Shown: positions 30,704 through 41,118, numbered from the stretch's first letter. The stretch: 64,000 nt of DNA from Alphaproteobacteria bacterium (GCA_045632645.1 JAZQXC010000014.1:18166-82165), one strand, 5' to 3'. The notes: generated by a model not told the origin, from the sequence alone. Translations and numbers: made by a program.

Positions 30704-30777
30704 AAAAAATACTTGCGCTATTTTATTGATAGCTCTATAAACAAGAAAAATATTAACCTATAAACTTGGAGATACAA

Positions 30778-31533
30778 ATGGCTGGACACTCCCAATTTAA
30801 GAACATTATGTACCGCAAAGGTGCACAAGATGCAAAAAAAGCTAGAGTTTTTGCAAAACTAGCTCGTGAAATTACTGTTGCTGCAAAAACAGGTCTTCCT
30901 GAACCAGATAAAAACCCTCGTTTAAGACTTGCAATCCAAGCAGCACGTGCAGAAAGTATGCCAAAAGATAATATTGAACGCGCTATTGCTAAGGCAACAC
31001 AAGTTGCAGGTGGAGCAGACTTTATCACAATGCGCTACGAAGGTTTTTCAGCAAACAAAGTAGCTGTAATTGTTGAAGCATTAACAGATAACAAAAACAG
31101 AACAGCAAGTAACGTTCGTTCAATTTTCGGCAAACGTGGTGGTGCAATGGGCGAAACAGGCTCTGTTGCATTTAACTTTGAGCGTATCGGATACATTGAA
31201 TATCCTTTAGCTGTTGCAGATGCTGACACAATGTTTGAAGAAGCATTAAACGCAGGTGCAAACGAAGTTATTTCAGAAGATGAGATTCATGCAATAGAAA
31301 CTCTTCCTGATGATTTATCATCTGTAACAGAAGCCTTAGAACAAAAATTCGGAACACCATCTGCTTCTCGTCTAGACTGGAAACCAACTGTTAAAACAGA
31401 CATTACAGACTTAGAAACAGCTAAAAAGTTCCTAGAATTTATTGATGCATTAGAAGAAGATGAAGATGTTCAACATGTTTATCACAATGCAGAAATATCC
31501 GAAGATGTTATGTCACAGCTAGAGGCTGAATAA
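30778..31533 (+). CDS. yebC: YebC/PmpR-family transcriptional regulator
   Basis: MAGHSQFKNIMYRKG start, GGAG RBS; 251 aa. Confidence 0.9.
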   Translation: MAGHSQFKNIMYRKGAQDAKKARVFAKLAREITVAAKTGLPEPDKNPRLRLAIQAARAESMPKDNIERAIAKATQVAGGADFITMRYEGFSANKVAVIVEALTDNKNRTASNVRSIFGKRGGAMGETGSVAFNFERIGYIEYPLAVADADTMFEEALNAGANEVISEDEIHAIETLPDDLSSVTEALEQKFGTPSASRLDWKPTVKTDITDLETAKKFLEFIDALEEDEDVQHVYHNAEISEDVMSQLEAE

Positions 31534-31535
31534 TA

Positions 31536-32024
31536 ATGCGCATATTAGGCCTAGACCCAAGCATATCATCAACCGGTTGGGGCGTAATAGATGTCGAGGG
31601 GAGCCGTTTGTCTTATAAGGCAGACGGCTTTATTCCAACATCAAACAAATTACCATTATCAGAGCGCTTGCATATTATACATAACGAACTAAAAAAAATA
31701 ATAGAAATATACAAACCAGACGAAGCCTCTATCGAGGTCACATTCTTAAACTCAAATCCCGAAACATCATTAAAGCTAAGTATGGCAAGAGGCGTTGTTT
31801 TTCTAATGCCAGCTCTTTACAATATTCCACTTTATGAATACGAGCCAAACAAAGTAAAAAAAGCTCTAACCGGCGTAGGCAGAGCAGACAAAACCCAAGT
31901 AGAAACAATGGTAAAAATATTGCTTCCTGGAGCAAAACCTCAAAACAATGACTCATCAGACGCTCTAGCTATAGCTATAACTCATGCAAATTTAAGAAAT
32001 TCTTTTAGCTTACAAAAAGTTTAA
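31536..32024 (+). CDS. ruvC: Crossover junction endodeoxyribonuclease RuvC
   Basis: ILGLDPSISSTGWGV start; 162 aa. Confidence 0.9.
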   Translation: MRILGLDPSISSTGWGVIDVEGSRLSYKADGFIPTSNKLPLSERLHIIHNELKKIIEIYKPDEASIEVTFLNSNPETSLKLSMARGVVFLMPALYNIPLYEYEPNKVKKALTGVGRADKTQVETMVKILLPGAKPQNNDSSDALAIAITHANLRNSFSLQKV

Positions 32025-32071: not shown

Positions 32072-32902
32072 CTATCCTCTTTCACCTTGTAGTACAAAAG
32101 GATATATTTTCATATCACTAGTACGAACTTCTTTTGGTTTGTTATGGTATGCATCTAAACTTTGTTTCATTGTTGAATCTTTTTCAGCATCTACAACTTC
32201 GGCAAATCTATCAACCAAACCGTTACAAAATTTAGTAAGCTCAGGATGATTATCTACAATCCTAGAGCAAACATTAACAACCCCCGCATTTGCAGAGCTC
32301 AACTGTATTCCTTTTGATTTTGCAACATTAACAACCTTTTCCATGTGAGAAATAAATTTCTCAGAAAGTCCTCTGTCTTCTATACATAATGTTTCTGCAA
32401 GACCTTCCTTAAATAAATTATCTACACCTTCATCCCTCAAACCGCTTACTGTTAATCTGCCAGCTAGTTCTTCAAAAACGGTTTTTCTATAACTATAGCA
32501 ATAAACACTAGCATCCTTTTCGCAATTTCTATCCCTCTTCATTGCATTATAAAACTCAAGAGCTTTATTATTTAAAGCAAACCCATCCTCTGGTTTTACC
32601 ATTTCAACAACACCCTCAACAACATCTTTGCAGGTCCAAGCAAGCCCAGGATATTGTTTTACTATTTCAGTACATATATCTATCAATTGTGTGTTATTTT
32701 CACTGATTTTGCCTTTATAGTACTTCACGTTTACAAGCTTTTGCCTTATATGCTCAGCAACTCTTTTAGCATCGTCTCCACTCAACAAACCAACATCAGC
32801 TACTTCAAACCCTGTATCATCTTGTGATTTTTGATTTTTATCAAACCCAAAAAATATATTACGCTCTGTTAAACGCTCTATAAAATTATCTGCAAGCTTC
32901 AT
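32072..32902 (-). CDS. Hypothetical repeat protein A (two copies of C-x2-IV-x2-(Y/H)P(G/E)L-x3-C motif), paralog of 32996..33742
   Basis: AAGGAGAGG RBS before ATG of MKLADNF; motifs ICTEIVKQYPGLAWTCKDVV and VCSRIVDNHPELTKFCNGLV. Confidence 0.55.
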   Translation of the reverse strand: MKLADNFIERLTERNIFFGFDKNQKSQDDTGFEVADVGLLSGDDAKRVAEHIRQKLVNVKYYKGKISENNTQLIDICTEIVKQYPGLAWTCKDVVEGVVEMVKPEDGFALNNKALEFYNAMKRDRNCEKDASVYCYSYRKTVFEELAGRLTVSGLRDEGVDNLFKEGLAETLCIEDRGLSEKFISHMEKVVNVAKSKGIQLSSANAGVVNVCSRIVDNHPELTKFCNGLVDRFAEVVDAEKDSTMKQSLDAYHNKPKEVRTSDMKIYPFVLQGERG

Positions 32903-32967
32903 GATCCTCTCCTTTTTTATATAACATAGATAAATAATACCACAAATACACTCCCATGTCAACATAC

Positions 32968-32998
32968 ATAAGAAAGAGGGCTCACGCCCTCTTTCTTA
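32968..32998 (-). terminator. Perfect 12-bp hairpin terminator after repeat protein B
   Basis: AAGAAAGAGGGCtcacGCCCTCTTTCTT. Confidence 0.75.
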
Positions 32999-33742
32999 CA
33001 TTCCCATTCCTATTCCATATCCCATTTCATATTGATAACCATCATCCATTTTATCGCACTTTTCTTTCATTTTTTTTGCTTCTTCCTTAGCCACAAGATT
33101 ATTACTTCTCCTTATTACTATATTACAATATTCTTGAGCTGTTCCAATTATATTATCATCATCAGAATTTAAATCAACAACCTTGCCCACTAATTGATTA
33201 CATTTTTCAGCCAACTCAGGGTGTCTAGATACAATTTTTTTACAATTTTCCACTATTGCATTTCCATAATAACCATTCTGACCTATTCCTTCATATAACT
33301 TATCTGTATATGCAACATATCGCTCTGCAACATCTTTATCTTCCAAACCAACCACACCATATGCATACGCCTTATCTCTTTCAGAAGAAAGCATGCCACA
33401 TAATTTTTTACGACTTATAAGCATCTTTTTTGCTTCAGATACATTAAAACCACCACTATTACCAATCTCAGCATATACAGCTAACATACTTCTTGCAAAG
33501 AAATTTTCCTCTTCTTCTGTTCCTCCAGCATTCATTTCTCCATATCTTACTAGCTTCTCTGCTACATTATAAATATCTTTAGGATTACAACTTTTATCCT
33601 TACTTACATTATATAAATCACAAGCCACTCCCCAAAGTTCACCATAAGAAAATTCTTCTCCTTTAATTTCTTTTGCATGAAAAAGTGTTACTTTTCTCTC
33701 TACATCTTCTAAACTAGTCATAGATCTATCTCCAAAACTCAA
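32996..33742 (-). CDS. Hypothetical repeat protein B (paralog of A; motif ENCKKIVSRHPELAEKCNQLV)
   Basis: Shares HPEL / Cys-pair motif with neighbour; 248 aa; ends in G/M/Y-rich tail. Confidence 0.55.
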   Translation of the reverse strand: MSFGDRSMTSLEDVERKVTLFHAKEIKGEEFSYGELWGVACDLYNVSKDKSCNPKDIYNVAEKLVRYGEMNAGGTEEEENFFARSMLAVYAEIGNSGGFNVSEAKKMLISRKKLCGMLSSERDKAYAYGVVGLEDKDVAERYVAYTDKLYEGIGQNGYYGNAIVENCKKIVSRHPELAEKCNQLVGKVVDLNSDDDNIIGTAQEYCNIVIRRSNNLVAKEEAKKMKEKCDKMDDGYQYEMGYGIGMGM

Positions 33743-33784: not shown

Positions 33785-33813
33785 TATAAAAAAAGAGGGC
33801 TCATCGCCCCCTT
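33785..33813 (-). terminator. Rho-independent terminator after cyclophilin gene
   Basis: Minus-strand AGGGGGCgaugaGCCCUCU + U7; core resembles terminator at 32968. Confidence 0.8.
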
Positions 33814-33817
33814 ATTT

Positions 33818-34489
33818 TTACATATCAGCAACAACTTCCATGCTAACTATAATATCTGGATCATGAACCATACCATTATAGCCACCGCCTTTTTTGATAT
33901 TATCAACATATTCCATACCGCTTACAACCCTACCCCAAACAGTATATTGTCCATCTAAGTGTGGAGCATCATCAAAACAAATAAAGAATTGGCTATCAGC
34001 AGAATCAGGATGCATAGCTCTTGCCATAGAAACTGTACCACGAGTATGAGGAACTCTATTAAATTCTGCTTTTAATTTTTTACCACTTCCACCAGTACCT
34101 GTTCCTAAAGGACAACCTGTCTGCGCCATAAAACCATCAATAACTCTATGGAACTTCAAACCATTATAAAAACCTTCTCTAACTAATTCCTTGATTCTAG
34201 CCACATGATTTGGCGCAACATCTGGCAACATTTCAATCACAACTTCACCATCTTTTAATTTTAAAACCAATGCATTTTCTTGGTCTTTCACATCATAAGA
34301 ATGTTTCATTTTCTTTCCCCTTGTTTCACTTATTTCTAATTTTTTAGTTTCTTCTGCTGTAATACTTTTTGTATCACTTTTTTCCAAAACTTTTGTTTCA
34401 CTCTTAGCTAAAACATTTCCCATCATAAAACCCTTTGCAACAAAAATTAAAACTAAAGCTAAAATTATATTTAGGAATTTATTTCTCAT
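33818..34489 (-). CDS. ppiB: Periplasmic cyclophilin-type peptidyl-prolyl cis-trans isomerase
   Basis: Signal peptide; cyclophilin motifs FHRVIDGFMAQTG...GTVSMA...SQFFI. Confidence 0.85.
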   Translation of the reverse strand: MRNKFLNIILALVLIFVAKGFMMGNVLAKSETKVLEKSDTKSITAEETKKLEISETRGKKMKHSYDVKDQENALVLKLKDGEVVIEMLPDVAPNHVARIKELVREGFYNGLKFHRVIDGFMAQTGCPLGTGTGGSGKKLKAEFNRVPHTRGTVSMARAMHPDSADSQFFICFDDAPHLDGQYTVWGRVVSGMEYVDNIKKGGGYNGMVHDPDIIVSMEVVADM

Positions 34490-35423
34490 TATTCAACACC
34501 CAATCAATACGTTCATTTGCTGTTAAACCTTGAGGATAAGAATCTATTTCTTTCAACCTATCCCTTAAACCCACTCCGTTAGCAATTTGTATTGCAAGCC
34601 CTGGTCTTGCATTTATTTCCAACATCATAGGACCTCTTTCCTTATCAAGCACAATATCCGCGCCCAAATAACCAAGACCGGTCATATCATACGCCATTGC
34701 CCCAATAAGAAGATGTTCTCTCCAAAAAGGAACCTTTAAATCCATAAGATTTGCCCCAGTATCAGGATGATGTGTAACCTGTTTATTATGCATAACCGCA
34801 TTAAGCGTTTTACCTGTTTTTACATCTAATCCAACACCAACCGCACCTTGATGAAGATTTGCTCTACCACCAGACTCTTTTGTAGCCAACCTCATCATAA
34901 CCATCGCCGGATATCCTTTATAAACAATCACTCTAACATCAGGCACACCGCGATAACTAAAATCCTTAAATACCTTACTAAAATTAACCGTCTCTTCAAT
35001 CAAAGCAACATCATATTTACCGCCAAGACTAAACAAACCACTCAAGGTATTTGATATATGTTGATAAACATCTTCAAAACTTAACACATCACCAGATGCA
35101 TTTATAAACTCATTTCCATTATACTCTTTTATAACCAAAACACCCTTACCACCACTGCCATGCGCCGGTTTAATAACAAATGTTTTATGCCCTTTTATAA
35201 TATCTAATAGGTTTTTCACCTGATATTGATGCTCAATAATACCAATCATTTTTGGTGTATTAATATTTACACTATTAGCCAAGCGTTTTGTTTTTACTTT
35301 ATCATCAACAAGGGTATATAAAGAGCGCTTATTTTGTTTTGCAATCACATCATAATTGCGCCGGTTCATACCTAGAACACCATTTTTGCTTAACTCTTTT
35401 GCTATTTTAAACCATTTAAACAT
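34479..35423 (-). CDS. ATP-grasp enzyme, RimK-related alpha-L-glutamate ligase-like family
   Basis: GAGGA RBS before MFKWF; N-terminal GVLGMNRRN, ATP-grasp KPAHGSGGKGVLVI; start overlaps upstream gene by 8 nt. Confidence 0.7.
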   Translation of the reverse strand: MFKWFKIAKELSKNGVLGMNRRNYDVIAKQNKRSLYTLVDDKVKTKRLANSVNINTPKMIGIIEHQYQVKNLLDIIKGHKTFVIKPAHGSGGKGVLVIKEYNGNEFINASGDVLSFEDVYQHISNTLSGLFSLGGKYDVALIEETVNFSKVFKDFSYRGVPDVRVIVYKGYPAMVMMRLATKESGGRANLHQGAVGVGLDVKTGKTLNAVMHNKQVTHHPDTGANLMDLKVPFWREHLLIGAMAYDMTGLGYLGADIVLDKERGPMMLEINARPGLAIQIANGVGLRDRLKEIDSYPQGLTANERIDWVLNNEK

Positions 35424-36972
35424 TTGTATTTTCCTCATTTTTAACAAGAGGAGCAAAACGCATAAGTTCTGTTAATCTATATCCAGTATATGTACCCAAA
35501 AGCATAACAACAAACATTATAACGATATTAAATTCATTAAATGCAAACATAACATGGCGCACATATTCATTACTAACCACCACATAAGTAATAAGAGCCG
35601 TCAATACAGTATTAAATATCTCTTTAATAGTATTTTTAGCTCCTTCTTCTTCCCATGTAATTGATGCGCGCTCAATAATCCACGCTGTAATAATTATAGG
35701 AAAGAAAATAGCCGAGCTAATAATGTGATAATCAGCTCTATACCCAATAACTGTAAGCACTTGTATTAGTAAAATAACAAAAATCACCACAAACGAAATT
35801 CTAGGAACTAAAAGCAAATTAAGTCTAGCAACAACAGCTCTCATCAAAAGCCCTAAAAATATCATTATAGAAAAACAAACCACACCTGAAACAAGCCCTG
35901 TTTTAACAAGCGACATAGCAAGCAACATTGGTGTAAATGTTCCCATCGTAGAAACACCAATAACATTTCTCATCAAAACAACCATCAAAATAGCTAAAGG
36001 GAAAATCATTAACCACTTTAATGTATTTTGCTCTAATATAGGCAAAGAATATACGCTATATTCATAAGGAATAAGTAGTTTATGATCTCTAGCCTTATGC
36101 TCAGCCATTTTTTCAGGAGTTGTTACAGATTTTAACACAGAGAACATAACTTTAGAATCTTCGCCACCACGAACATCTAACAAAGAAACACCACCACGCT
36201 GGAAAACAACCAAGTTTTTGGCAAGACCAATATTGGCAGTATTCAAATCATATATTTTCCACTCATCATCTAAAAACGCCTCAAGCATAATATCTGGCTT
36301 TTCGGTTTTCTTACCTTCTTCAAGTTTAATAACTCTAACAATTCTAGCAGGAATTCTTTTATACGATAAAACATTGATAATCTTCTCTGCAAATTCTTTA
36401 GGGGTATAATTTAAAGGAATAATCAAGCTCATAGAAGGATTAATTACCTCCTTATTTAAAGCATTAATAATCTTTTGAACCTTATTTCCTTCATACAAAT
36501 GAGCCAACTCCCAAAGTTTACTCATTTGCCCTTTCTCTTCTTCGTTAAGTATTGGTCTTTCAATTTCTATAGGCTTCATTTCATCGCCTTTAACTTCATC
36601 AACATCATCATAAATGCTAAAGCGATAATAAAGATTTTGTTTTCCCTTCTTGTTTTTACCCTTAAAAACTATTCTGTTATTTATTTTATCGTGCTCAACA
36701 GCATAGTTTTTAGCAACAAATTCTTCGCTTAAGATTTTAAAGCTATAATTTGTTGTGGGAACACTAAGTCCAACCTCAACATCTCCACCCAACGCTCTAA
36801 AAGACACTTTCGCATCAATAGTCCAAACATCTGTAACTGCTTTGGGAGAAAACGTAAAACCCCAATATTTTATCTTATAATAACAGCAAGCAGAAGCATA
36901 CCACAAAGATAAAACAAGCAATAAAAACAATACTTTTCTAACACTAAAAAATTCAAAACCACTTTTTATCAT
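35416..36972 (-). CDS. Inactive-transglutaminase-like soluble domain fused to 7 TM helices
   Basis: 518 aa: N-terminal signal/anchor, about 300 aa soluble domain, then 7 hydrophobic helices. Confidence 0.65.
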   Translation of the reverse strand: MIKSGFEFFSVRKVLFLLLVLSLWYASACCYYKIKYWGFTFSPKAVTDVWTIDAKVSFRALGGDVEVGLSVPTTNYSFKILSEEFVAKNYAVEHDKINNRIVFKGKNKKGKQNLYYRFSIYDDVDEVKGDEMKPIEIERPILNEEEKGQMSKLWELAHLYEGNKVQKIINALNKEVINPSMSLIIPLNYTPKEFAEKIINVLSYKRIPARIVRVIKLEEGKKTEKPDIMLEAFLDDEWKIYDLNTANIGLAKNLVVFQRGGVSLLDVRGGEDSKVMFSVLKSVTTPEKMAEHKARDHKLLIPYEYSVYSLPILEQNTLKWLMIFPLAILMVVLMRNVIGVSTMGTFTPMLLAMSLVKTGLVSGVVCFSIMIFLGLLMRAVVARLNLLLVPRISFVVIFVILLIQVLTVIGYRADYHIISSAIFFPIIITAWIIERASITWEEEGAKNTIKEIFNTVLTALITYVVVSNEYVRHVMFAFNEFNIVIMFVVMLLGTYTGYRLTELMRFAPLVKNEENTNV

Positions 36973-36981
36973 ATTAAGTCC

Positions 36982-37527
36982 CTAATTTAAGGTATAAGAA
37001 GTTGATGTATCAACAATATATCTACCTGTTAAAATATTACGCCCAATCAACCCTTGATAATCAAATTGTCTTCTATCTGCAATAGAAAATACCGCACTAA
37101 AAACTTCTTTACCAAGTTTTACATCCATCTTAACAGCTCTTCTTCTTTCATCTTCACCCATTCTTTTAACCTTAAAAGAACGCTCAACTTTTTTTTCAAA
37201 AACATGCTCTTCGCCTGTTTTACGATTTTTTAATTTAAAAGAAACCCACTTTTCACCATCGCGTTCAAAATATTCAACATCATCACAATCAATAGATGAT
37301 GTTGTAGCACCCGTATCAATTCTAGCTAAAAACGGAGTTTTCATGGGCAAAAAATAAATAGGCTCAACCTCTCCAATAATAGGAAGATGAGCCTTTTCAA
37401 TAACAACCTCTTTCTTTGTTGTGTTAACATTATGCACAACAGCAGGAACAATTACTTGCTTTGTATGACAAGCAGAAACCAAAACCACAACCACTAATAC
37501 AACCACTAATATAAAAAACTTATGCAT
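36982..37527 (-). CDS. Lipoprotein retropepsin-like (clan AA, DTGA) aspartic protease ('putative ATP-dependent zinc protease' family)
   Basis: Lipobox VSAC; ARIDTGATTSSID aspartic protease signature. Confidence 0.7.
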   Translation of the reverse strand: MHKFFILVVVLVVVVLVSACHTKQVIVPAVVHNVNTTKKEVVIEKAHLPIIGEVEPIYFLPMKTPFLARIDTGATTSSIDCDDVEYFERDGEKWVSFKLKNRKTGEEHVFEKKVERSFKVKRMGEDERRRAVKMDVKLGKEVFSAVFSIADRRQFDYQGLIGRNILTGRYIVDTSTSYTLN

Positions 37528-37679
37528 TTACTTTTAAAACCTTTTAATATTTCACAGATATTTCTGCATAAATATATCTCTAAAATATATAACAAACATC
37601 AAGAAAATAACACTAATGCACAATGTTTTTACATAATGATAGAATGTATATTGTATAACGATGTATTTAAACGTTGTAT

Positions 37680-38825
37680 TTAAAACATTACCGTCGCTCT
37701 CAAACTTGTAGCAAAACCATAATTAGATTTTTGATTTAGCGCAGGATTGATATAGAGTTGAACATCAGGAGTTACAACAACCATATCTCCAATACCAAAA
37801 GACCAAAAAGCTTCAACTACCTGTTCTGCCTTATGATTTACTTTTTCACCAACAGCTTTTTCATCAATTTTATTATAAGCATACGCCAAACCAATCTGAT
37901 CTAAAGGGTTCCTGTCAAACGGATTGTTATAAACACCCCCCAGCACCCAAGATTGCCTGATTTCCTCAACATCACCACTAGTTTCATTTACTCTTGCAAA
38001 AACACTAAGTTTTTCACCAATATTTTGTGATAAATTCAAAGACCAACCATTTGTTGTTTGGGGTTGTTCTTTAACCCAAGGTTGATTATACACTAACAAA
38101 GAAACCTCCGCATCTCCCAAACCTTTAATTGTTGGCGTATAAGCCACATACCCAAATGTTGTATAATGCTCATCACTCAGATCATTAAATCTAATACTAG
38201 GCGCATCAACATTTGTTCCATCTTGCCCACCAAAAGCTATTGTCCAATTATCATTAGGATTTATCTGAGCATACACACCAACCCCTGCTTGCGTATATGA
38301 TGCAGATGCATTTTGTGATAACGACTCATTTAAGAAATTAATTTGTTGGTTAGCATCATAATCTGTTCCATCAAAATTATAAATAGGAAATTGCCCCACC
38401 CCAAAAGTTAGCCAATTATATTTCCCACCAAATTGATATGTATAATAAAGCTCATTAAACTCATTTTCTCCACTTGCATAATCATTTATCGGTGTAACAA
38501 AACCAGAGTTATTTGCTAAATCATTAGCATTATGATTACCATATCTAATAACCGTATACGCAAAATTTAGCGTACCAACCCCATTTTTGTTATTAAACAT
38601 TTCCCATGTAAATGATGGATATAAATATCCCTGAACAGCGTTATGTTTTCCACTTGGCGCACTTCTTTGCTCCAAAATAGAAACATCAACACTATAATCA
38701 AAGCCATATTTTTTATTTAATCTATTTTTAAAATCTTGATAATTATCAAAAACACCTTGAGCTTTAGCCAAATTACCACTCAAAGATGCTATTAAGAAAA
38801 ACAAAAAAACAATATTTTTTTTCAT
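37680..38825 (-). CDS. Outer-membrane beta-barrel porin (OprB-like carbohydrate porin suggested)
   Basis: Signal peptide MKKNIVFLFFLIASLSGNLAKA/Q, 381 aa, C-terminal ...LRATVMF. Confidence 0.55.
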   Translation of the reverse strand: MKKNIVFLFFLIASLSGNLAKAQGVFDNYQDFKNRLNKKYGFDYSVDVSILEQRSAPSGKHNAVQGYLYPSFTWEMFNNKNGVGTLNFAYTVIRYGNHNANDLANNSGFVTPINDYASGENEFNELYYTYQFGGKYNWLTFGVGQFPIYNFDGTDYDANQQINFLNESLSQNASASYTQAGVGVYAQINPNDNWTIAFGGQDGTNVDAPSIRFNDLSDEHYTTFGYVAYTPTIKGLGDAEVSLLVYNQPWVKEQPQTTNGWSLNLSQNIGEKLSVFARVNETSGDVEEIRQSWVLGGVYNNPFDRNPLDQIGLAYAYNKIDEKAVGEKVNHKAEQVVEAFWSFGIGDMVVVTPDVQLYINPALNQKSNYGFATSLRATVMF

Positions 38826-38960: not shown

Positions 38961-39617
38961 ATGATAGCGAAATTAAAAGGCATTATAGATAACATCGGCG
39001 AAGACTGTTGCATCATAGATGTAAACGGCGTCGGATACCTCGTTAATATGTCTTCAAAAACTCTCTCAAAACTCTCTCAAGGAGAATATACAACACTTCT
39101 TATAGAAACAGTTATAAAAGAAGACAGCATAACACTCTTTGGCTTTCAATCCCCTTGGGAAAAAGAGTGGTTTAACACGCTTACAAAAATTCAAGGCGTT
39201 GGTGGAAAGGTTTGCTTAGCAATTTTAAGTGCCTTGAGTCCAGCAGAATTATCGCAAGCCATTTCTGCTCAAGATAAAACACCATTCCAAAGAGCATCTG
39301 GTGTTGGACCAAAGCTTGCAACAAGATTGGTTACCGAATTAAAAGATAAAATAGTAACAATTCCTGTTGAATATCTATCATCAACTAATTTAAACACTGT
39401 ATTTAAAGGCGAAAAAGAACAAACAGAACAACCAATAGCTTTAGAGCCACAAACAGATGAAACATACTCCAAAACAGAAGATTTAACATCTGCTCTAACA
39501 AACTTAGGATATCAAAAAATTGATGCTTATCGAGTAGCTTCATCTATTTGTCTACAAAATAAAGATGCAGATATAGGAACTCTAATTCGTTTAGCACTAA
39601 AAGAATTTAACAAATAG
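38961..39617 (+). CDS. ruvA: Holliday junction DNA helicase RuvA
   Basis: MIAKLKGII start, HhH motifs; 218 aa. Confidence 0.9.
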
Positions 39618-39625
39618 GAGAAAAA

Positions 39626-40681
39626 ATGCAAAACAATCAAGAAAGACTCTTAAGCGCACAAAAACTTTCAATAGATGAAGCAAATTCTCCTATTGCAATA
39701 AATCTAAGACCTTCAAGCTTAGATGAATTTGTCGGACAAGACAAGGTATGTCAAAACCTAAAAGTGTTTATCCAATCAGCAAAACAAAGGGGTGAGGTTT
39801 TAGACCATGTTCTATTATATGGCCCCCCAGGACTTGGTAAAACAACCTTATCGAATATAATATCAAAAGAGCTTGGTGTTGGTTTTAAGGCAACATCTGC
39901 TCCAATGATTACCAAATCAGGCGACCTTGCTGCAATTTTAACAAATCTAGAAGCAAAAGACGTCTTATTTATTGATGAAATACATCGCCTAAATCCTGCA
40001 ATAGAAGAGGTTTTGTATTCCGCAATGGAAGATTTTCAACTAGATATAATCATTGGTGAAGGTCCATCAGCACGCTCAGTAAAAATCGATCTACAACCAT
40101 TCACGCTGGTTGGCGCAACCACCCGTTCTGGCTTAGTATCCACCCCTCTTCGTGAAAGATTTGGTATTCCATTAAGAATGGATTTTTATAATCATGAAGA
40201 CCTAAAAAAGATTGTAAAACGTGGCGCTAAATTATTAAATATGCCCATTTCTGATGACGGAGCAATGGAGGTTGCAAAACGCTCAAGAGGAACCCCTCGA
40301 ATTGCTGGAAGACTATTAAAAAGAGTAAGAGATTTTGGTGCTGTTGCTGGCAATATTGAAATAGATTCAAACATAGCCGACAAAGCTTTAAGCCTCTTAG
40401 ATGTTGACCCATATGGTTTGGATGAATTTGATAGAAGATATCTAAATTGTATAGCAAAAAACTATGGTGGCGGTCCTGTTGGCGCAGACACTCTTGCAGC
40501 GGCCCTATCCGAAGAAAGAGACACCATAGAAGAAGTAATAGAACCATATTTACTAAAACTTGGCTTTTTACAAAGAACACCAAGAGGAAGAGTTCTCTCC
40601 GAACAAGGTTGTAAATATTTAGGAGTAAAAACCTCCAAAACAAGCAATCAAATTAGTTTTATAGATGATTTAGGATTTTAA
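39626..40681 (+). CDS. ruvB: Holliday junction DNA helicase RuvB
   Basis: [13 protein letters not shown] Walker A, AAA+; 351 aa. Confidence 0.95.
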
Positions 40682-40683
40682 AC

Positions 40684-41118
40684 ATGACATACGAAACACC
40701 AACCATTAAAGGGCAATTATTCGAAGATAAAACATTCTCATTTCCTGTTCGTGTATATTATGAAGATACCGATGCTGGTGGCATAGTATATTACGCAAAT
40801 TACCTAAAATTTGCAGAAAGAGCCAGAACAGAATTTTTACGTCATATCGGAAAAAATCAAGATGAAATGTTAAAACAACAGGGGCTAGGTTTTGTGGTAA
40901 GAGAGTGCCATATAAACTATAAAACTCCAGCCAAATTAGATGATGCTTTAAATGTTACATGTAGGGTCACAGAATTAAGAGGTGCCTCACTAAAAATGGA
41001 ACAAAAAATATACAGACAAGACACTGTTCTTTGCGAGGTAGAAATAGGTTTAGTTTTCTTAAATATTGCAACAATGCGCCCAACAAAAATACCGCCAGAA
41101 ATAGCTCAAACATTTTAA
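40684..41118 (+). CDS. ybgC: Acyl-CoA thioesterase YbgC (4HBT family)
   Basis: VYYEDTDAGGIVYYANYLKF hotdog motif; 144 aa. Confidence 0.85.
   Translation: MTYETPTIKGQLFEDKTFSFPVRVYYEDTDAGGIVYYANYLKFAERARTEFLRHIGKNQDEMLKQQGLGFVVRECHINYKTPAKLDDALNVTCRVTELRGASLKMEQKIYRQDTVLCEVEIGLVFLNIATMRPTKIPPEIAQTF

What the first reader, a model, noticed from the sequence alone, without database searches (positions are those of the whole stretch)
33818..37527. Overlapping four-gene operon: DTGA protease / 7TM inactive transglutaminase / RimK-like ATP-grasp ligase / periplasmic cyclophilin
Each coding region overlaps or nearly abuts the next: a 9-nt gap, then 8-nt and 11-nt overlaps. This indicates translational coupling.

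- The first gene encodes a lipoprotein (lipobox VSAC) with the retroviral-type aspartic protease signature RIDTGATTSSID.
- The second has a soluble domain of about 300 aa followed by seven hydrophobic helices. This is the architecture of the family described as an inactive transglutaminase fused to 7 TM helices.
- The third is an ATP-grasp enzyme (GVLGMNRRN..., KPAHGSGGKGVLVI) of the RimK-related alpha-L-glutamate-ligase-like family.

Comparative genomics recognises this trio as a conserved cassette with no experimentally established function. It is presumed to ligate amino acids or peptides onto a target at the envelope. What is unusual here is the secreted cyclophilin PPIase added as a fourth, translationally coupled gene.
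Basis: partly seen in the sequence, partly recalled or inferred. Interest (0 to 1): 0.7.

Follow-up and report, generated by a model that had tools for sequence, protein, structure and literature searches.

The report
RloABC envelope operon plus dedicated cyclophilin
Four co-oriented genes in an uncultured gut or rumen alphaproteobacterium are the recently named rloABC envelope-stress operon plus a cyclophilin found with it only in this lineage; the cyclophilin is probably not a classical secreted enzyme, because in most relatives it has a conserved disordered N-terminal tail and no signal peptide.

Summary
The four minus-strand ORFs, their 9-nt gap and their 8-nt and 11-nt overlaps are real.
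- retropepsin-like protease (PF05618, DTGA motif, conserved lipobox);
- inactive transglutaminase fused to 7TM (PF14400 + PF14402);
- RimK-related ligase (TIGR02291, above cutoff);
- cyclophilin (PF00160).

The trio is no longer uncharacterised. It is rloABC of Pseudomonas aeruginosa (mBio 2025). RloA cleaves poly-glutamate, and loss of rloB or rloC suppresses the defects of protease-less mutants.

The cyclophilin addition is real and specific to one lineage.
- It directly follows rloC in 25 of 30 informative gut/rumen alphaproteobacterial species and in 0 of 45 other rlo loci.
- Conversely, 25 of 25 informative metagenomic cyclophilins carrying the same N-terminal tail sit directly after rloC.
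- The flanking genes vary. No terminator lies between rloC and ppi, and one follows ppi.

"Periplasmic" and "translationally coupled" are doubtful. About 100 orthologue clusters start at the window's Met23, with their own Shine-Dalgarno site, a 24–86 nt gap and no signal peptide. The signal-peptide-like 22-residue extension occurs only in the window's narrow subclade, and nothing shows it is translated.

Verdict: a known system with a new lineage-specific accessory gene. Interest is moderate.

The parts
36982..37527 (-). rloA: retropepsin-like aspartic peptidase, predicted lipoprotein. Signal peptide with lipobox VSA|C20; catalytic D71-T-G-A.
   Evidence: PF05618 98.6 bits. NCBIfam RloA3/RloA2/RimB/RloA models give family-level hits, all below their equivalog cutoffs. 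Matches the RloA crystal structures 9G59 and 9G58 at E 3e-14 and 2e-11. R69, R129 and R152 align with the poly-Glu-coordinating K46, R114 and R137 of P. aeruginosa RloA. The lipobox is conserved in nearly all alphaproteobacterial orthologues.
35416..36972 (-). rloB: inner-membrane protein. N-terminal TM segment, periplasmic inactive-transglutaminase domain, C-terminal 7TM block.
   Evidence: PF14400 (residues 32-182) and PF14402 (residues 263-509, full model length). NCBIfam RloB 259 bits, below the 900-bit Pseudomonas-specific cutoff. Hydropathy. 1,667 relatives at E<=1e-3 among 1.84 billion representatives.
34479..35423 (-). rloC: cytoplasmic ATP-grasp, RimK-related alpha-L-glutamate-ligase-like. 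Start at MFKWFK.
   Evidence: TIGR02291 424.4 bits against cutoff 314.2; PF14397 295 bits. RimK proper (TIGR00768) scores only 39.9 against 143.4. GAGGA Shine-Dalgarno site 7 nt upstream. No TM segment.
33818..34423 (-). Cyclophilin from the start codon conserved across the clade (Met23 of the ORF; 201 aa).
   Evidence: PF00160 148.5 bits. About 100 of 120 orthologue clusters start here. AAGGG Shine-Dalgarno site 6 nt upstream. The AF2 core is confident. Closest solved structure is 2MVZ, E 8.5e-32.
34295..34423 (-). Conserved N-terminal tail of the cyclophilin (residues 23-65). Rich in K, T, E and S, with repeats of about 8 residues (xSETKxLx) ending in S-x-T-R-x-K-K-[IM]-K-H-S-Y. Predicted disordered.
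   Evidence: Many invariant or near-invariant columns across 47 orthologues. pLDDT below 50 for residues 20-62. No Pfam match. Present only in rlo-linked cyclophilins.
34424..34489 (-). In-frame upstream extension (22 codons, MRNKFLNIILALVLIFVAKGFM) that looks like a signal peptide or anchor. Its ATG overlaps the rloC stop by 11 nt. Translation uncertain.
   Evidence: Open and hydrophobic in 7 DNA loci and about 17 protein clusters of the window's subclade only. No third-codon-position bias. Shine-Dalgarno site for M1 is -3.7 kcal/mol, against -4.5 for M23.
33793..33813 (-). Intrinsic terminator closing the operon.
   Evidence: 8-bp stem with 5 GC pairs followed by a T-run. In relatives, 0 of 29 loci have a terminator-like site between rloC and ppi, and 14 of 29 have one within 90 nt after ppi.
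37528..37679 (-). Upstream intergenic or regulatory region. No convincing sigma-70 promoter was found. Contains blocks conserved among relatives.
   Evidence: the tandem repeat TTTAAATACA-NN-GTTTAAATACA (37662-37684) and the block TTGTGCATTAGT..TTGATGTTTGTTA are invariant in 5 relatives. No terminator after the porin gene.
37680..38825 (-). OprB/AaxA-like porin, frequent upstream neighbour on the same strand. Linkage is looser than that of the cyclophilin.
   Evidence: PF04966 58.9 bits; NCBIfam AaxA 282 bits, below the 600-bit cutoff. Present upstream in 24 of 37 alphaproteobacterial loci. In 7 of them an opposite-strand gene separates it from rloA, and in one more (L032) two same-strand ORFs do.

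Best explanation
This is an rloABC operon, the retropepsin-like osmotic-stress-tolerance system described in Pseudomonas aeruginosa in 2025. It sits in an uncultured gut/rumen alphaproteobacterium and has a lineage-specific fourth gene, a cyclophilin, as the last cistron before the terminator.

Proposed working, with the basis of each step:
1. RloC, a cytoplasmic RimK-related ATP-grasp ligase, makes a glutamate-rich product, either free poly-alpha-glutamate or a glutamylated acceptor. This is inferred from family membership and from RimK chemistry.
2. RloB, the 7TM protein with a periplasmic inactive-transglutaminase domain, is needed for that product to act at or beyond the inner membrane. 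This is inferred from topology and from the published epistasis.
3. RloA, here a lipoprotein facing the periplasm, trims or destroys the product. In Pseudomonas, RloA cleaves runs of at least 8 glutamates, and rloB or rloC deletion suppresses loss of RloA. Here the catalytic DTG and the Arg/Lys residues that coordinate glutamate are conserved.
4. The cyclophilin is co-transcribed as an accessory factor. This is shown by conserved adjacency, variable flanks and terminator position.

The ancestral and most common form of the cyclophilin starts at Met23. It has no signal peptide and carries a conserved disordered tail of about 40 residues found only in rlo-linked cyclophilins. It most likely acts on the cytoplasmic side, as a folding or assembly helper or a docking partner of RloC or RloB. 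That last point is inference.

In the window's narrow subclade the reading frame is open 22 codons further upstream and encodes a signal-peptide-like segment. This may add an exported or membrane-anchored isoform, which is unresolved.
For: Family membership.

Published function of the trio: PMC12239564. Envelope phenotype of an RloB homologue in Shewanella: PMC12096838.

Active-site and substrate-binding residues.

The A-B-C order is universal in 80+ loci.

Cyclophilin linkage:
- 25 of 30 informative alphaproteobacterial species loci have ppi within 90 nt of rloC. One more has it displaced by two inserted genes.
- 0 of 45 informative loci in other lineages have it.
- 25 of 25 informative tail-bearing cyclophilins from metagenomes lie directly after rloC.
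- None of 53 tail-less relatives has rlo genes nearby.
- The rlo-linked cyclophilins are monophyletic in an NJ tree.
- The four-gene block is constant while upstream and downstream neighbours change many times.
- 0 of 29 loci have a terminator between rloC and ppi, and 14 of 29 have one just after ppi, including the window.

Conserved Met23 start, its own Shine-Dalgarno site and absence of a signal peptide in most orthologues.

The tail is conserved yet predicted disordered.
Against: - No experiment exists for this organism or for any alphaproteobacterial rlo operon.
- The RloBC product is unknown even in Pseudomonas.
- Conserved adjacency shows co-expression, not a shared mechanism. 4 of 30 alphaproteobacterial rlo loci, and all other lineages, work without a linked cyclophilin, so it is not a core component.
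- The window's own ORF does encode a textbook-looking signal peptide: MRNK, then 14 hydrophobic residues, then VLA|K. It is intact in every member of the subclade examined. This argues against a purely cytoplasmic location here.
- The NJ tree places the rlo-linked cyclophilins next to signal-peptide-bearing cyclophilins. The tree has no support values.
- Scores against the Pseudomonas-specific NCBIfam RloA and RloB models are far below cutoff, so functional equivalence is extrapolated across classes.
Confidence: 0.6

Rival explanations
1. The cyclophilin is translated from the first ATG (34489), coupled to rloC termination through the 11-nt overlap. It is exported by Sec and acts in the periplasm together with RloA and the periplasmic domain of RloB.
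For: - The extension has the n-, h- and c-region layout of a Sec signal peptide, with a V-L-A|K cleavage motif. AF2 models residues 2-26 as one helix.
- It is open in all 7 DNA loci and about 17 protein clusters of the subclade. All substitutions in the h-region are hydrophobic, and the one indel seen is in frame.
- The nearest tail-less relatives in the NJ tree carry signal peptides.
Against: - The extension is missing from about 100 orthologue clusters and from every species locus outside the subclade. There an in-frame stop lies upstream and a strong Shine-Dalgarno site precedes the Met23 equivalent.
- The AAGGG/GAGGG Shine-Dalgarno site before Met23 is retained inside the extension, even where that costs a K-to-E change.
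- Substitutions in the extension show no third-position bias, unlike the rest of the gene.
- T-rich non-coding DNA read in frame gives hydrophobic peptides by default.
- Parsimony favours a recent gain in one subclade, so export cannot be the general mode of action of the rlo-linked cyclophilin.
Confidence: 0.3
2. The cyclophilin is simply the cell's housekeeping PPIase. It became the last gene of this transcript in an ancestor of the clade and has stayed there. It has no specific role in the Rlo pathway.
For: - Cyclophilins are general folding catalysts.
- The core is an ordinary alphaproteobacterial cyclophilin, 65-75% identical to free-standing ones.
- The rlo system works without it in all other lineages and in 4 alphaproteobacterial species.
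- Small gut-adapted genomes often keep unrelated genes in one operon (general knowledge).
Against: - Adjacency has survived many rearrangements of both flanks across RloB divergence down to about 49% identity. The upstream porin, by contrast, was often separated or lost.
- The subfamily-specific conserved tail occurs only in the rlo context: 25 of 25 tail-bearing cyclophilins against 0 of 53 tail-less ones. This points to co-adaptation.
Confidence: 0.3
3. The cyclophilin's tail is itself part of the chemistry. It is either the acceptor or primer that RloC glutamylates, or a mixed-charge, Lys-rich adaptor that binds the poly-Glu product and hands it to RloB.
For: - The physiological substrate of RloC and RloA is unknown, and no genome-encoded poly-Glu protein was found in Pseudomonas.
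- The tail is conserved but disordered, as expected of a linear-motif or substrate region.
- It has 10 K/R against 7 D/E, and invariant Thr, Lys and Glu positions.
Against: - No direct evidence exists.
- RimK-type ligases extend a C-terminal Glu, and the cyclophilin ends in ...ADM or ...ADL.
- The net charge of the tail is only +3.
- Lineages without the cyclophilin would need another acceptor.
Confidence: 0.1

Closest known systems
rloABC operon of Pseudomonas aeruginosa PA14 (PA14_41690/41710/41730; Lormand et al., mBio 2025, PMC12239564)
   Same: - The same three families in the same order on one strand, tightly spaced.
- RloA has an export signal, the DTG motif and the Arg/Lys residues that coordinate poly-Glu.
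- RloB has the PF14400 + PF14402 architecture.
- RloC is a TIGR02291-type ATP-grasp without TM segments.
   Different: - The host is alphaproteobacterial rather than gammaproteobacterial. The paper describes the operon as widely conserved in Gammaproteobacteria.
- Identity is only about 30-35% for RloB, and scores are far below the Pseudomonas-specific NCBIfam cutoffs.
- RloA here is a predicted lipoprotein.
- A cyclophilin is added as the fourth and last cistron.
- An OprB-type porin is often found upstream.
RimABK / RimK-RimB ribosomal protein S6 glutamylation system
   Same: An ATP-grasp glutamate ligase paired with a retropepsin-like protease that trims poly-Glu. The paper proposes that rlo arose from rim.
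   Different: - RimB and RimK are both cytoplasmic and act on RpsF.
- There is no 7TM/transglutaminase protein.
- RloC fails the RimK subfamily model (39.9 bits against a cutoff of 143.4).
- RloA carries a lipoprotein signal.
Ordinary alphaproteobacterial cyclophilins: free-standing genes, some with a signal peptide, and tandem periplasmic + cytoplasmic pairs as seen in soil and marine contigs. E. coli PpiA and PpiB are the textbook analogues.
   Same: The same single-domain cyclophilin fold, 65-75% identical in the core to these relatives. The catalytic Arg, Phe, Met and Gln of the FHRVI.GFMAQ segment are conserved.
   Different: - It carries a conserved disordered tail of about 40 residues that no tail-less relative has.
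- It is always placed after rloC.
- Most members have no signal peptide. The window's subclade has a possible one placed in front of the tail.
Poly-gamma-glutamate synthesis (PgsBCA/CapBCA with a PgdS/CapD-type hydrolase), as a functional analogy only
   Same: A membrane-associated ligase system that produces an anionic glutamate polymer outside the cytoplasm, paired with a dedicated hydrolase.
   Different: The protein families are unrelated and the linkage is gamma, not alpha. No homology was tested or claimed here.

Membership tests
rloABC operon | RloA: RimB-like retropepsin fold family (PF05618) with a D-T-G active site | tested here: met
   PF05618 98.6 bits against a cutoff of 27. RIDTGA at residues 69-74. 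Aligns to the RloA crystal structures 9G59 and 9G58.
rloABC operon | RloA carries an N-terminal export signal (this distinguishes it from cytoplasmic RimB) | tested here: met
   Hydrophobic N-terminus plus lipobox VSA|C. The lipobox is conserved in nearly all alphaproteobacterial orthologues. No dedicated signal-peptide predictor was available.
rloABC operon | RloA keeps the basic residues that coordinate poly-Glu (K46, R114, R137 in P. aeruginosa RloA) | tested here: met
   R69, R129 and R152 align to these positions through the 9G59 alignment, with the same 23-residue spacing between the two Arg. The equivalent of R92 was not assessed.
rloABC operon | RloB: inactive transglutaminase domain fused to 7 TM helices | tested here: met
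   PF14400 90.1 bits and PF14402 254.8 bits, both full length.
rloABC operon | RloC: cytoplasmic ATP-grasp of the RimK-related alpha-L-glutamate-ligase-like family | tested here: met
   TIGR02291 424.4 bits against a cutoff of 314.2. No TM segment.
rloABC operon | Gene order A-B-C, co-oriented and tightly packed | tested here: met
   The same order is seen in every one of 80+ loci.
rloABC operon | Equivalog-level identity to the Pseudomonas RloA1/2/3 and RloB (NCBIfam NF052262-4, NF052267) | tested here: not met
   Best RloA3 score is 99.4 against 210. RloB scores 258.8 against 900. These models are narrow (types 'equivalog' and 'exception'). The window proteins are distant family members, not equivalogs.
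rloABC operon | Function: hypo-osmotic stress tolerance, poly-Glu cleavage, rloB/rloC epistatic to rloA | not testable with these tools
   Known only for P. aeruginosa (PMC12239564).
RimK (ribosomal protein S6 glutamate ligase) | Score above the RimK subfamily or equivalog cutoffs | tested here: not met
   TIGR00768 39.9 against 143.4. PRK10446 20.9 against 331. PDB RimK chains match only at E of about 2e-3.
Cyclophilin-type PPIase | PF00160 domain with the catalytic segment | tested here: met
   148.5 bits against a cutoff of 21.7. FHRVIDGFMAQ is invariant in 47 orthologues. The AF2 core is confident.
Periplasmic (PpiA-like) cyclophilin | A cleavable Sec signal peptide at the true N-terminus | tested here: inconclusive
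   A signal-peptide-like extension is present in the window ORF and its subclade only. It is absent from about 100 orthologue clusters that start at the Met23 equivalent. The start codon used is unknown. NCBIfam PpiA and PpiB equivalog scores are about 80 against cutoffs of about 300.
Four-gene transcription unit (operon with ppi) | No terminator or promoter between rloC and ppi; a terminator after ppi; adjacency conserved independently of the flanks | tested here: met
   Transcript evidence itself is not testable here.

The most novel reading that the evidence does not exclude
The tail-bearing cyclophilin is a dedicated fourth component of the Rlo pathway in gut/rumen Alphaproteobacteria. Its conserved disordered K/T/E-repeat tail docks onto RloC or RloB, or onto the glutamate-rich product. 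In the window's subclade the gene would be read from alternative in-frame starts: Met1 with a signal peptide, the conserved Met23, and possibly Met61 behind a strong Shine-Dalgarno site. That would place PPIase activity on both sides of the inner membrane. If so, the tail could be used as bait to find the still unknown substrate of the Rlo system.
Probability: 0.3. Interest if true: 0.6.

Novelty: new variant of a known kind. Interest (0 to 1): 0.4.

Why it matters
The Rlo system affects osmotic tolerance, beta-lactam sensitivity, biofilm formation and cell shape in Pseudomonas. Its biochemical product and substrate are unknown.

A lineage in which the operon has recruited its own cyclophilin offers an independent handle on the mechanism. 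That cyclophilin carries a conserved tail found nowhere else. An interaction partner of the tail, or a proline-containing client, would narrow down what RloB and RloC make or modify.

The finding also extends rloABC beyond the Gammaproteobacteria emphasised in the literature. The operon is present in abundant uncultured gut and rumen Alphaproteobacteria, and also in Victivallales, Phycisphaerae and Opitutales contigs.

The core trio is already described. The cyclophilin's role is only inferred from gene linkage.

Tried and rejected
- **Met61 (MKHSYD) as the true cyclophilin start.** It has the strongest Shine-Dalgarno site (-7.6 kcal/mol). I rejected it as the main start because residue 61 is Ile in most orthologues and the 40 residues upstream are conserved at protein level. 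An extra internal start in the subclade is not excluded.
- **Codon-position test of the 22-codon extension on 4 DNA sequences.** It was inconclusive. Substitutions are spread over all three positions, unlike the core. Signal peptides also evolve this way, and too few events were available.
- **A relative with a disrupted extension.** P0139 and P0141 were called with shorter N-termini. Both turned out to have the extension intact, so the gene callers had simply chosen other ATGs.
- **A conserved fourth gene in non-alphaproteobacterial rlo loci.** None was found.
- **A sigma-70 promoter upstream of rloA.** No convincing match was found. Transcription from the porin promoter or from another sigma factor is possible.
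- **Pfam search of the tail alone.** Nothing significant was found.
- **PADLOC and Pfam on the two downstream unknown genes.** Nothing was found.
- **The conserved tandem repeat at the porin stop.** It is not a repeat dispersed through the window.
- **Iyer et al. 2009 (Mol Biosyst), the original comparative-genomics description of the cassette.** The paper is not held in the library. What I say about it rests on memory and on its citation in PMC12096838.
- **The genes inserted between rloC and ppi in L023 and L026.** By eye they look like an azoreductase-like flavoprotein and a NUDIX hydrolase. I treated them as unrelated insertions without running a family search.

Full report
**1. Observation**

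Reading the sequence confirms each junction.
- There is a 9-nt gap between the rloA stop and the rloB ATG.
- rloB and rloC overlap by 8 nt (ATGTTTAA) when rloC starts at MFKWFK (35423).
- rloC and the first ATG of the cyclophilin ORF overlap by 11 nt (ATGAGAAATAA).

The longest rloC ORF starts at a TTG 33 nt further up.

An intrinsic terminator (33813-33793) follows the cyclophilin stop directly. An 11/12 consensus promoter (33783-33755) then serves the next gene. No terminator-like site lies on the minus strand inside the block or between the upstream porin gene and rloA.

**2. Family assignments**

- Gene 1 matches PF05618, which Pfam still names "putative ATP-dependent zinc protease". It also gives family-level hits to the NCBIfam RloA1/2/3 and RimB models.
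- Gene 2 matches PF14400 plus PF14402 over their full lengths.
- Gene 3 matches TIGR02291 at 424 bits against a cutoff of 314.
- Gene 4 matches PF00160.

RloC fails the RimK subfamily model (39.9 against 143.4). It is RimK-related, not RimK.

The Pseudomonas-specific NCBIfam models for RloA and RloB are matched far below cutoff. These are therefore distant family members, not equivalogs.

**3. What the trio is**

The NCBIfam names led to Lormand et al., mBio 2025 (PMC12239564). The paper reports the following.
- The cassette is the rloABC operon of P. aeruginosa.
- Crystal structures 9G58 and 9G59 show that RloA is a retropepsin-like dimer with a positively charged substrate channel.
- RloA cleaves runs of at least 8 glutamates in vitro.
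- A triple rloA mutant dies in low-osmolarity medium and has defects in biofilm formation, beta-lactam resistance and cell shape.
- Deleting rloB or rloC suppresses these defects.
- The physiological substrate is unknown.

A Shewanella RloB homologue gives a hyper-vesiculation phenotype when disrupted (PMC12096838).

The chemistry is still open.

The window's RloA aligns to 9G59 and 9G58 (E 3e-14 and 2e-11). It keeps D71-T-G. It also keeps R69, R129 and R152 at the positions of K46, R114 and R137, the residues shown to matter for poly-Glu cleavage.

Its lipobox is conserved in nearly all alphaproteobacterial orthologues.

**4. Organism and distribution**

The closest RloB proteins (up to 91% identity) come from uncultured "Alphaproteobacteria bacterium" MAGs from human gut, rumen and other animal gut samples.

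A scan of one genome per species with an RloB profile returned 80 loci.
- 32 were from this alphaproteobacterial group (47-70% identity).
- 48 were from Vibrio, Photobacterium, Aeromonas, Endozoicomonas, Nitrosomonas, other Gammaproteobacteria, Victivallales, Phycisphaerae and Opitutales (30-38% identity).

In every locus the order is rloA-rloB-rloC.

**5. The cyclophilin is a lineage-specific, tightly linked fourth gene**

Among the 30 informative alphaproteobacterial species loci:
- 25 have a cyclophilin within 90 nt downstream of rloC;
- one (L023) has it 1.2 kb downstream, behind two inserted genes;
- four (L018, L034-L036) lack it.

None of the 45 informative loci from other lineages has one, and no other conserved fourth gene appears there.

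The block RloA-RloB-RloC-PPI stays constant while both flanks change repeatedly, with at least ten different downstream contexts. The upstream OprB-type porin is present in only 24 of 37 alphaproteobacterial loci and is often separated from rloA.

The reverse test used a metagenome scan with the cyclophilin profile.
- All 25 informative cyclophilins that carry the same N-terminal tail lie directly after rloC.
- None of the 53 nearest tail-less relatives has rlo genes nearby. These are 65-75% identical in the core and come from soil and marine Alphaproteobacteria. They are free-standing genes, many with a signal peptide, or tandem periplasmic + cytoplasmic pairs.

A crude NJ tree makes the rlo-linked cyclophilins monophyletic.

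No terminator-like hairpin lies between rloC and ppi in 0 of 29 loci. 14 of 29 have one within 90 nt after ppi.

Together this supports ppi as the last cistron of the operon in this clade and suggests co-adaptation. It does not prove a shared mechanism.

**6. The cyclophilin is probably not a classical periplasmic enzyme**

About 100 of the 120 best orthologue clusters are 201 aa long. They begin at the equivalent of the window's Met23 (MTELLKKSETK..., MSNVLGKSETK...).

In L003 an in-frame stop lies upstream, the gap after rloC is 46 nt, and AAGGAAGGG precedes the ATG. Across species loci the gap is 24-86 nt.

The hydrophobic 22-residue extension (MRNKFLNIILALVLIFVAKGFM) is confined to the window's narrow subclade: the window, L001, L004, L005, L086, L088, L090 and about 17 protein clusters.

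For translation of the extension:
- It is always open.
- Its h-region substitutions are all hydrophobic.
- One indel is in frame.
- It ends in a V-L-A|K motif.

Against translation:
- There is no third-position bias.
- The AAGGG site before Met23 is kept within it, and becomes GAGGG at the cost of a K-to-E change in L086.
- The Shine-Dalgarno strengths of Met1 and Met23 are similar (-3.7 against -4.5 kcal/mol).
- T-rich DNA read in frame gives hydrophobic peptides by default.

I rate export of the window's protein at roughly one in three to one in two. Export as the general mode for this cyclophilin subfamily is unlikely.

Met61, which has the strongest Shine-Dalgarno site, is not the general start. 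That residue is Ile in most orthologues and the upstream 40 residues are conserved.

**7. The tail**

Residues 23-65 are rich in K, T, E and S, with repeats of about 8 residues (xSETKxLx) and a near-invariant S-x-T-R-x-K-K-[IM]-K-H-S-Y end. Many columns are invariant across 47 orthologues.

AlphaFold2 nevertheless gives pLDDT below 50 for residues 20-62, next to a confident cyclophilin core. The tail has no Pfam match.

A conserved but disordered segment found only in the rlo context is what one expects of a docking motif or a substrate-like region. Which of the two it is cannot be decided here.

**8. Most likely working**

1. RloC (cytoplasmic) builds a glutamate-rich product.
2. RloB is required for that product to act at or across the inner membrane.
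3. The lipoprotein RloA trims it on the periplasmic side.
4. The cyclophilin is co-expressed as an accessory. It most likely acts on the cytoplasmic side as a helper or partner of RloC or RloB, with a possible exported isoform in the window's subclade.

Steps 1-3 are extrapolated from Pseudomonas genetics and biochemistry and from family membership. Step 4 rests on gene linkage and on the subfamily-specific tail.

**9. Verdict**

The trio is a known system, now named. The lineage-specific cyclophilin with its private tail is a new variant of it and a modest but usable lead on the Rlo mechanism. "Periplasmic" and "translationally coupled" should be dropped or marked as unproven.

Noticed in passing
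window 32072-33742 (minus strand): Two genes without any family match lie between ppi and ruvC. Each has a near-consensus promoter (33783-33755 and 32962-32934). They are weak paralogues sharing a C..IV..HPEL...CN.LV motif (BLASTP E 6e-08). This slot varies between close relatives: it is empty in L004, holds an HTH gene plus two unknown genes in L001, and holds an 82-aa and a 558-aa ORF in L005. It behaves as a small hypervariable islet.
   Followed up: partly
window 37662-37684 and 37570-37610 (minus strand): A tandem direct repeat, TTTAAATACA-NN-GTTTAAATACA, overlaps the porin stop codon. A second block (TTGTGCATTAGT..TTGATGTTTGTTA) lies upstream of rloA. Both are invariant in five relatives down to 70% RloB identity, while the rest of the spacer diverges. 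They may be a regulator binding site. The repeat is not dispersed in the window (2 matches, one with 3 mismatches).
   Followed up: partly
window 37680-38825 (minus strand): An OprB-family porin lies upstream of rloA on the same strand. Its best NCBIfam hit is the chlamydial AaxA model, at 282 bits, below the 600-bit cutoff. It is present in 24 of 37 alphaproteobacterial loci, and no terminator lies between it and rloA in the window. It may be co-transcribed, but its linkage is looser than that of the cyclophilin.
   Followed up: partly
window 34307-34330 (minus strand; codons 54-61 of the cyclophilin ORF): In the window's wider subclade the tail reads SETRGKKMKHSY instead of SETRAKKIKHSY. The Gly codons create AAGGGGAAAG, and an ATG lies 6 nt downstream (-7.6 kcal/mol to the anti-SD). 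This is a possible internal start that would give a tail-less cyclophilin isoform.
   Followed up: no
L029:5823-6963: One rumen MAG carries two rloA genes in tandem upstream of rloB. The second copy has no obvious signal peptide.
   Followed up: no
L023:9531-10639 and L026:3274-3870: In two species, genes are inserted between rloC and the cyclophilin. L023 has two, and L026 has the first before its contig ends. From the sequences alone they look like an azoreductase-like flavoprotein and a NUDIX hydrolase. This shows the rloC-ppi junction can be broken.
   Followed up: no
L012 and L033 (record titles): Contigs carrying a typical alphaproteobacterial rlo-ppi locus are deposited under 'Lachnospiraceae bacterium' and 'Lactobacillaceae bacterium' MAG names. 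These are probably mis-binned or mislabelled assemblies.
   Followed up: no
window 30766-32024 and 38961-41118: ruvC (with yebC) and ruvAB (with ybgC) flank the porin-rlo-ppi cluster on the opposite strand. The same arrangement is seen in L001, L004 and L005. In more distant relatives only the ruvAB side, or neither side, is kept.
   Followed up: partly
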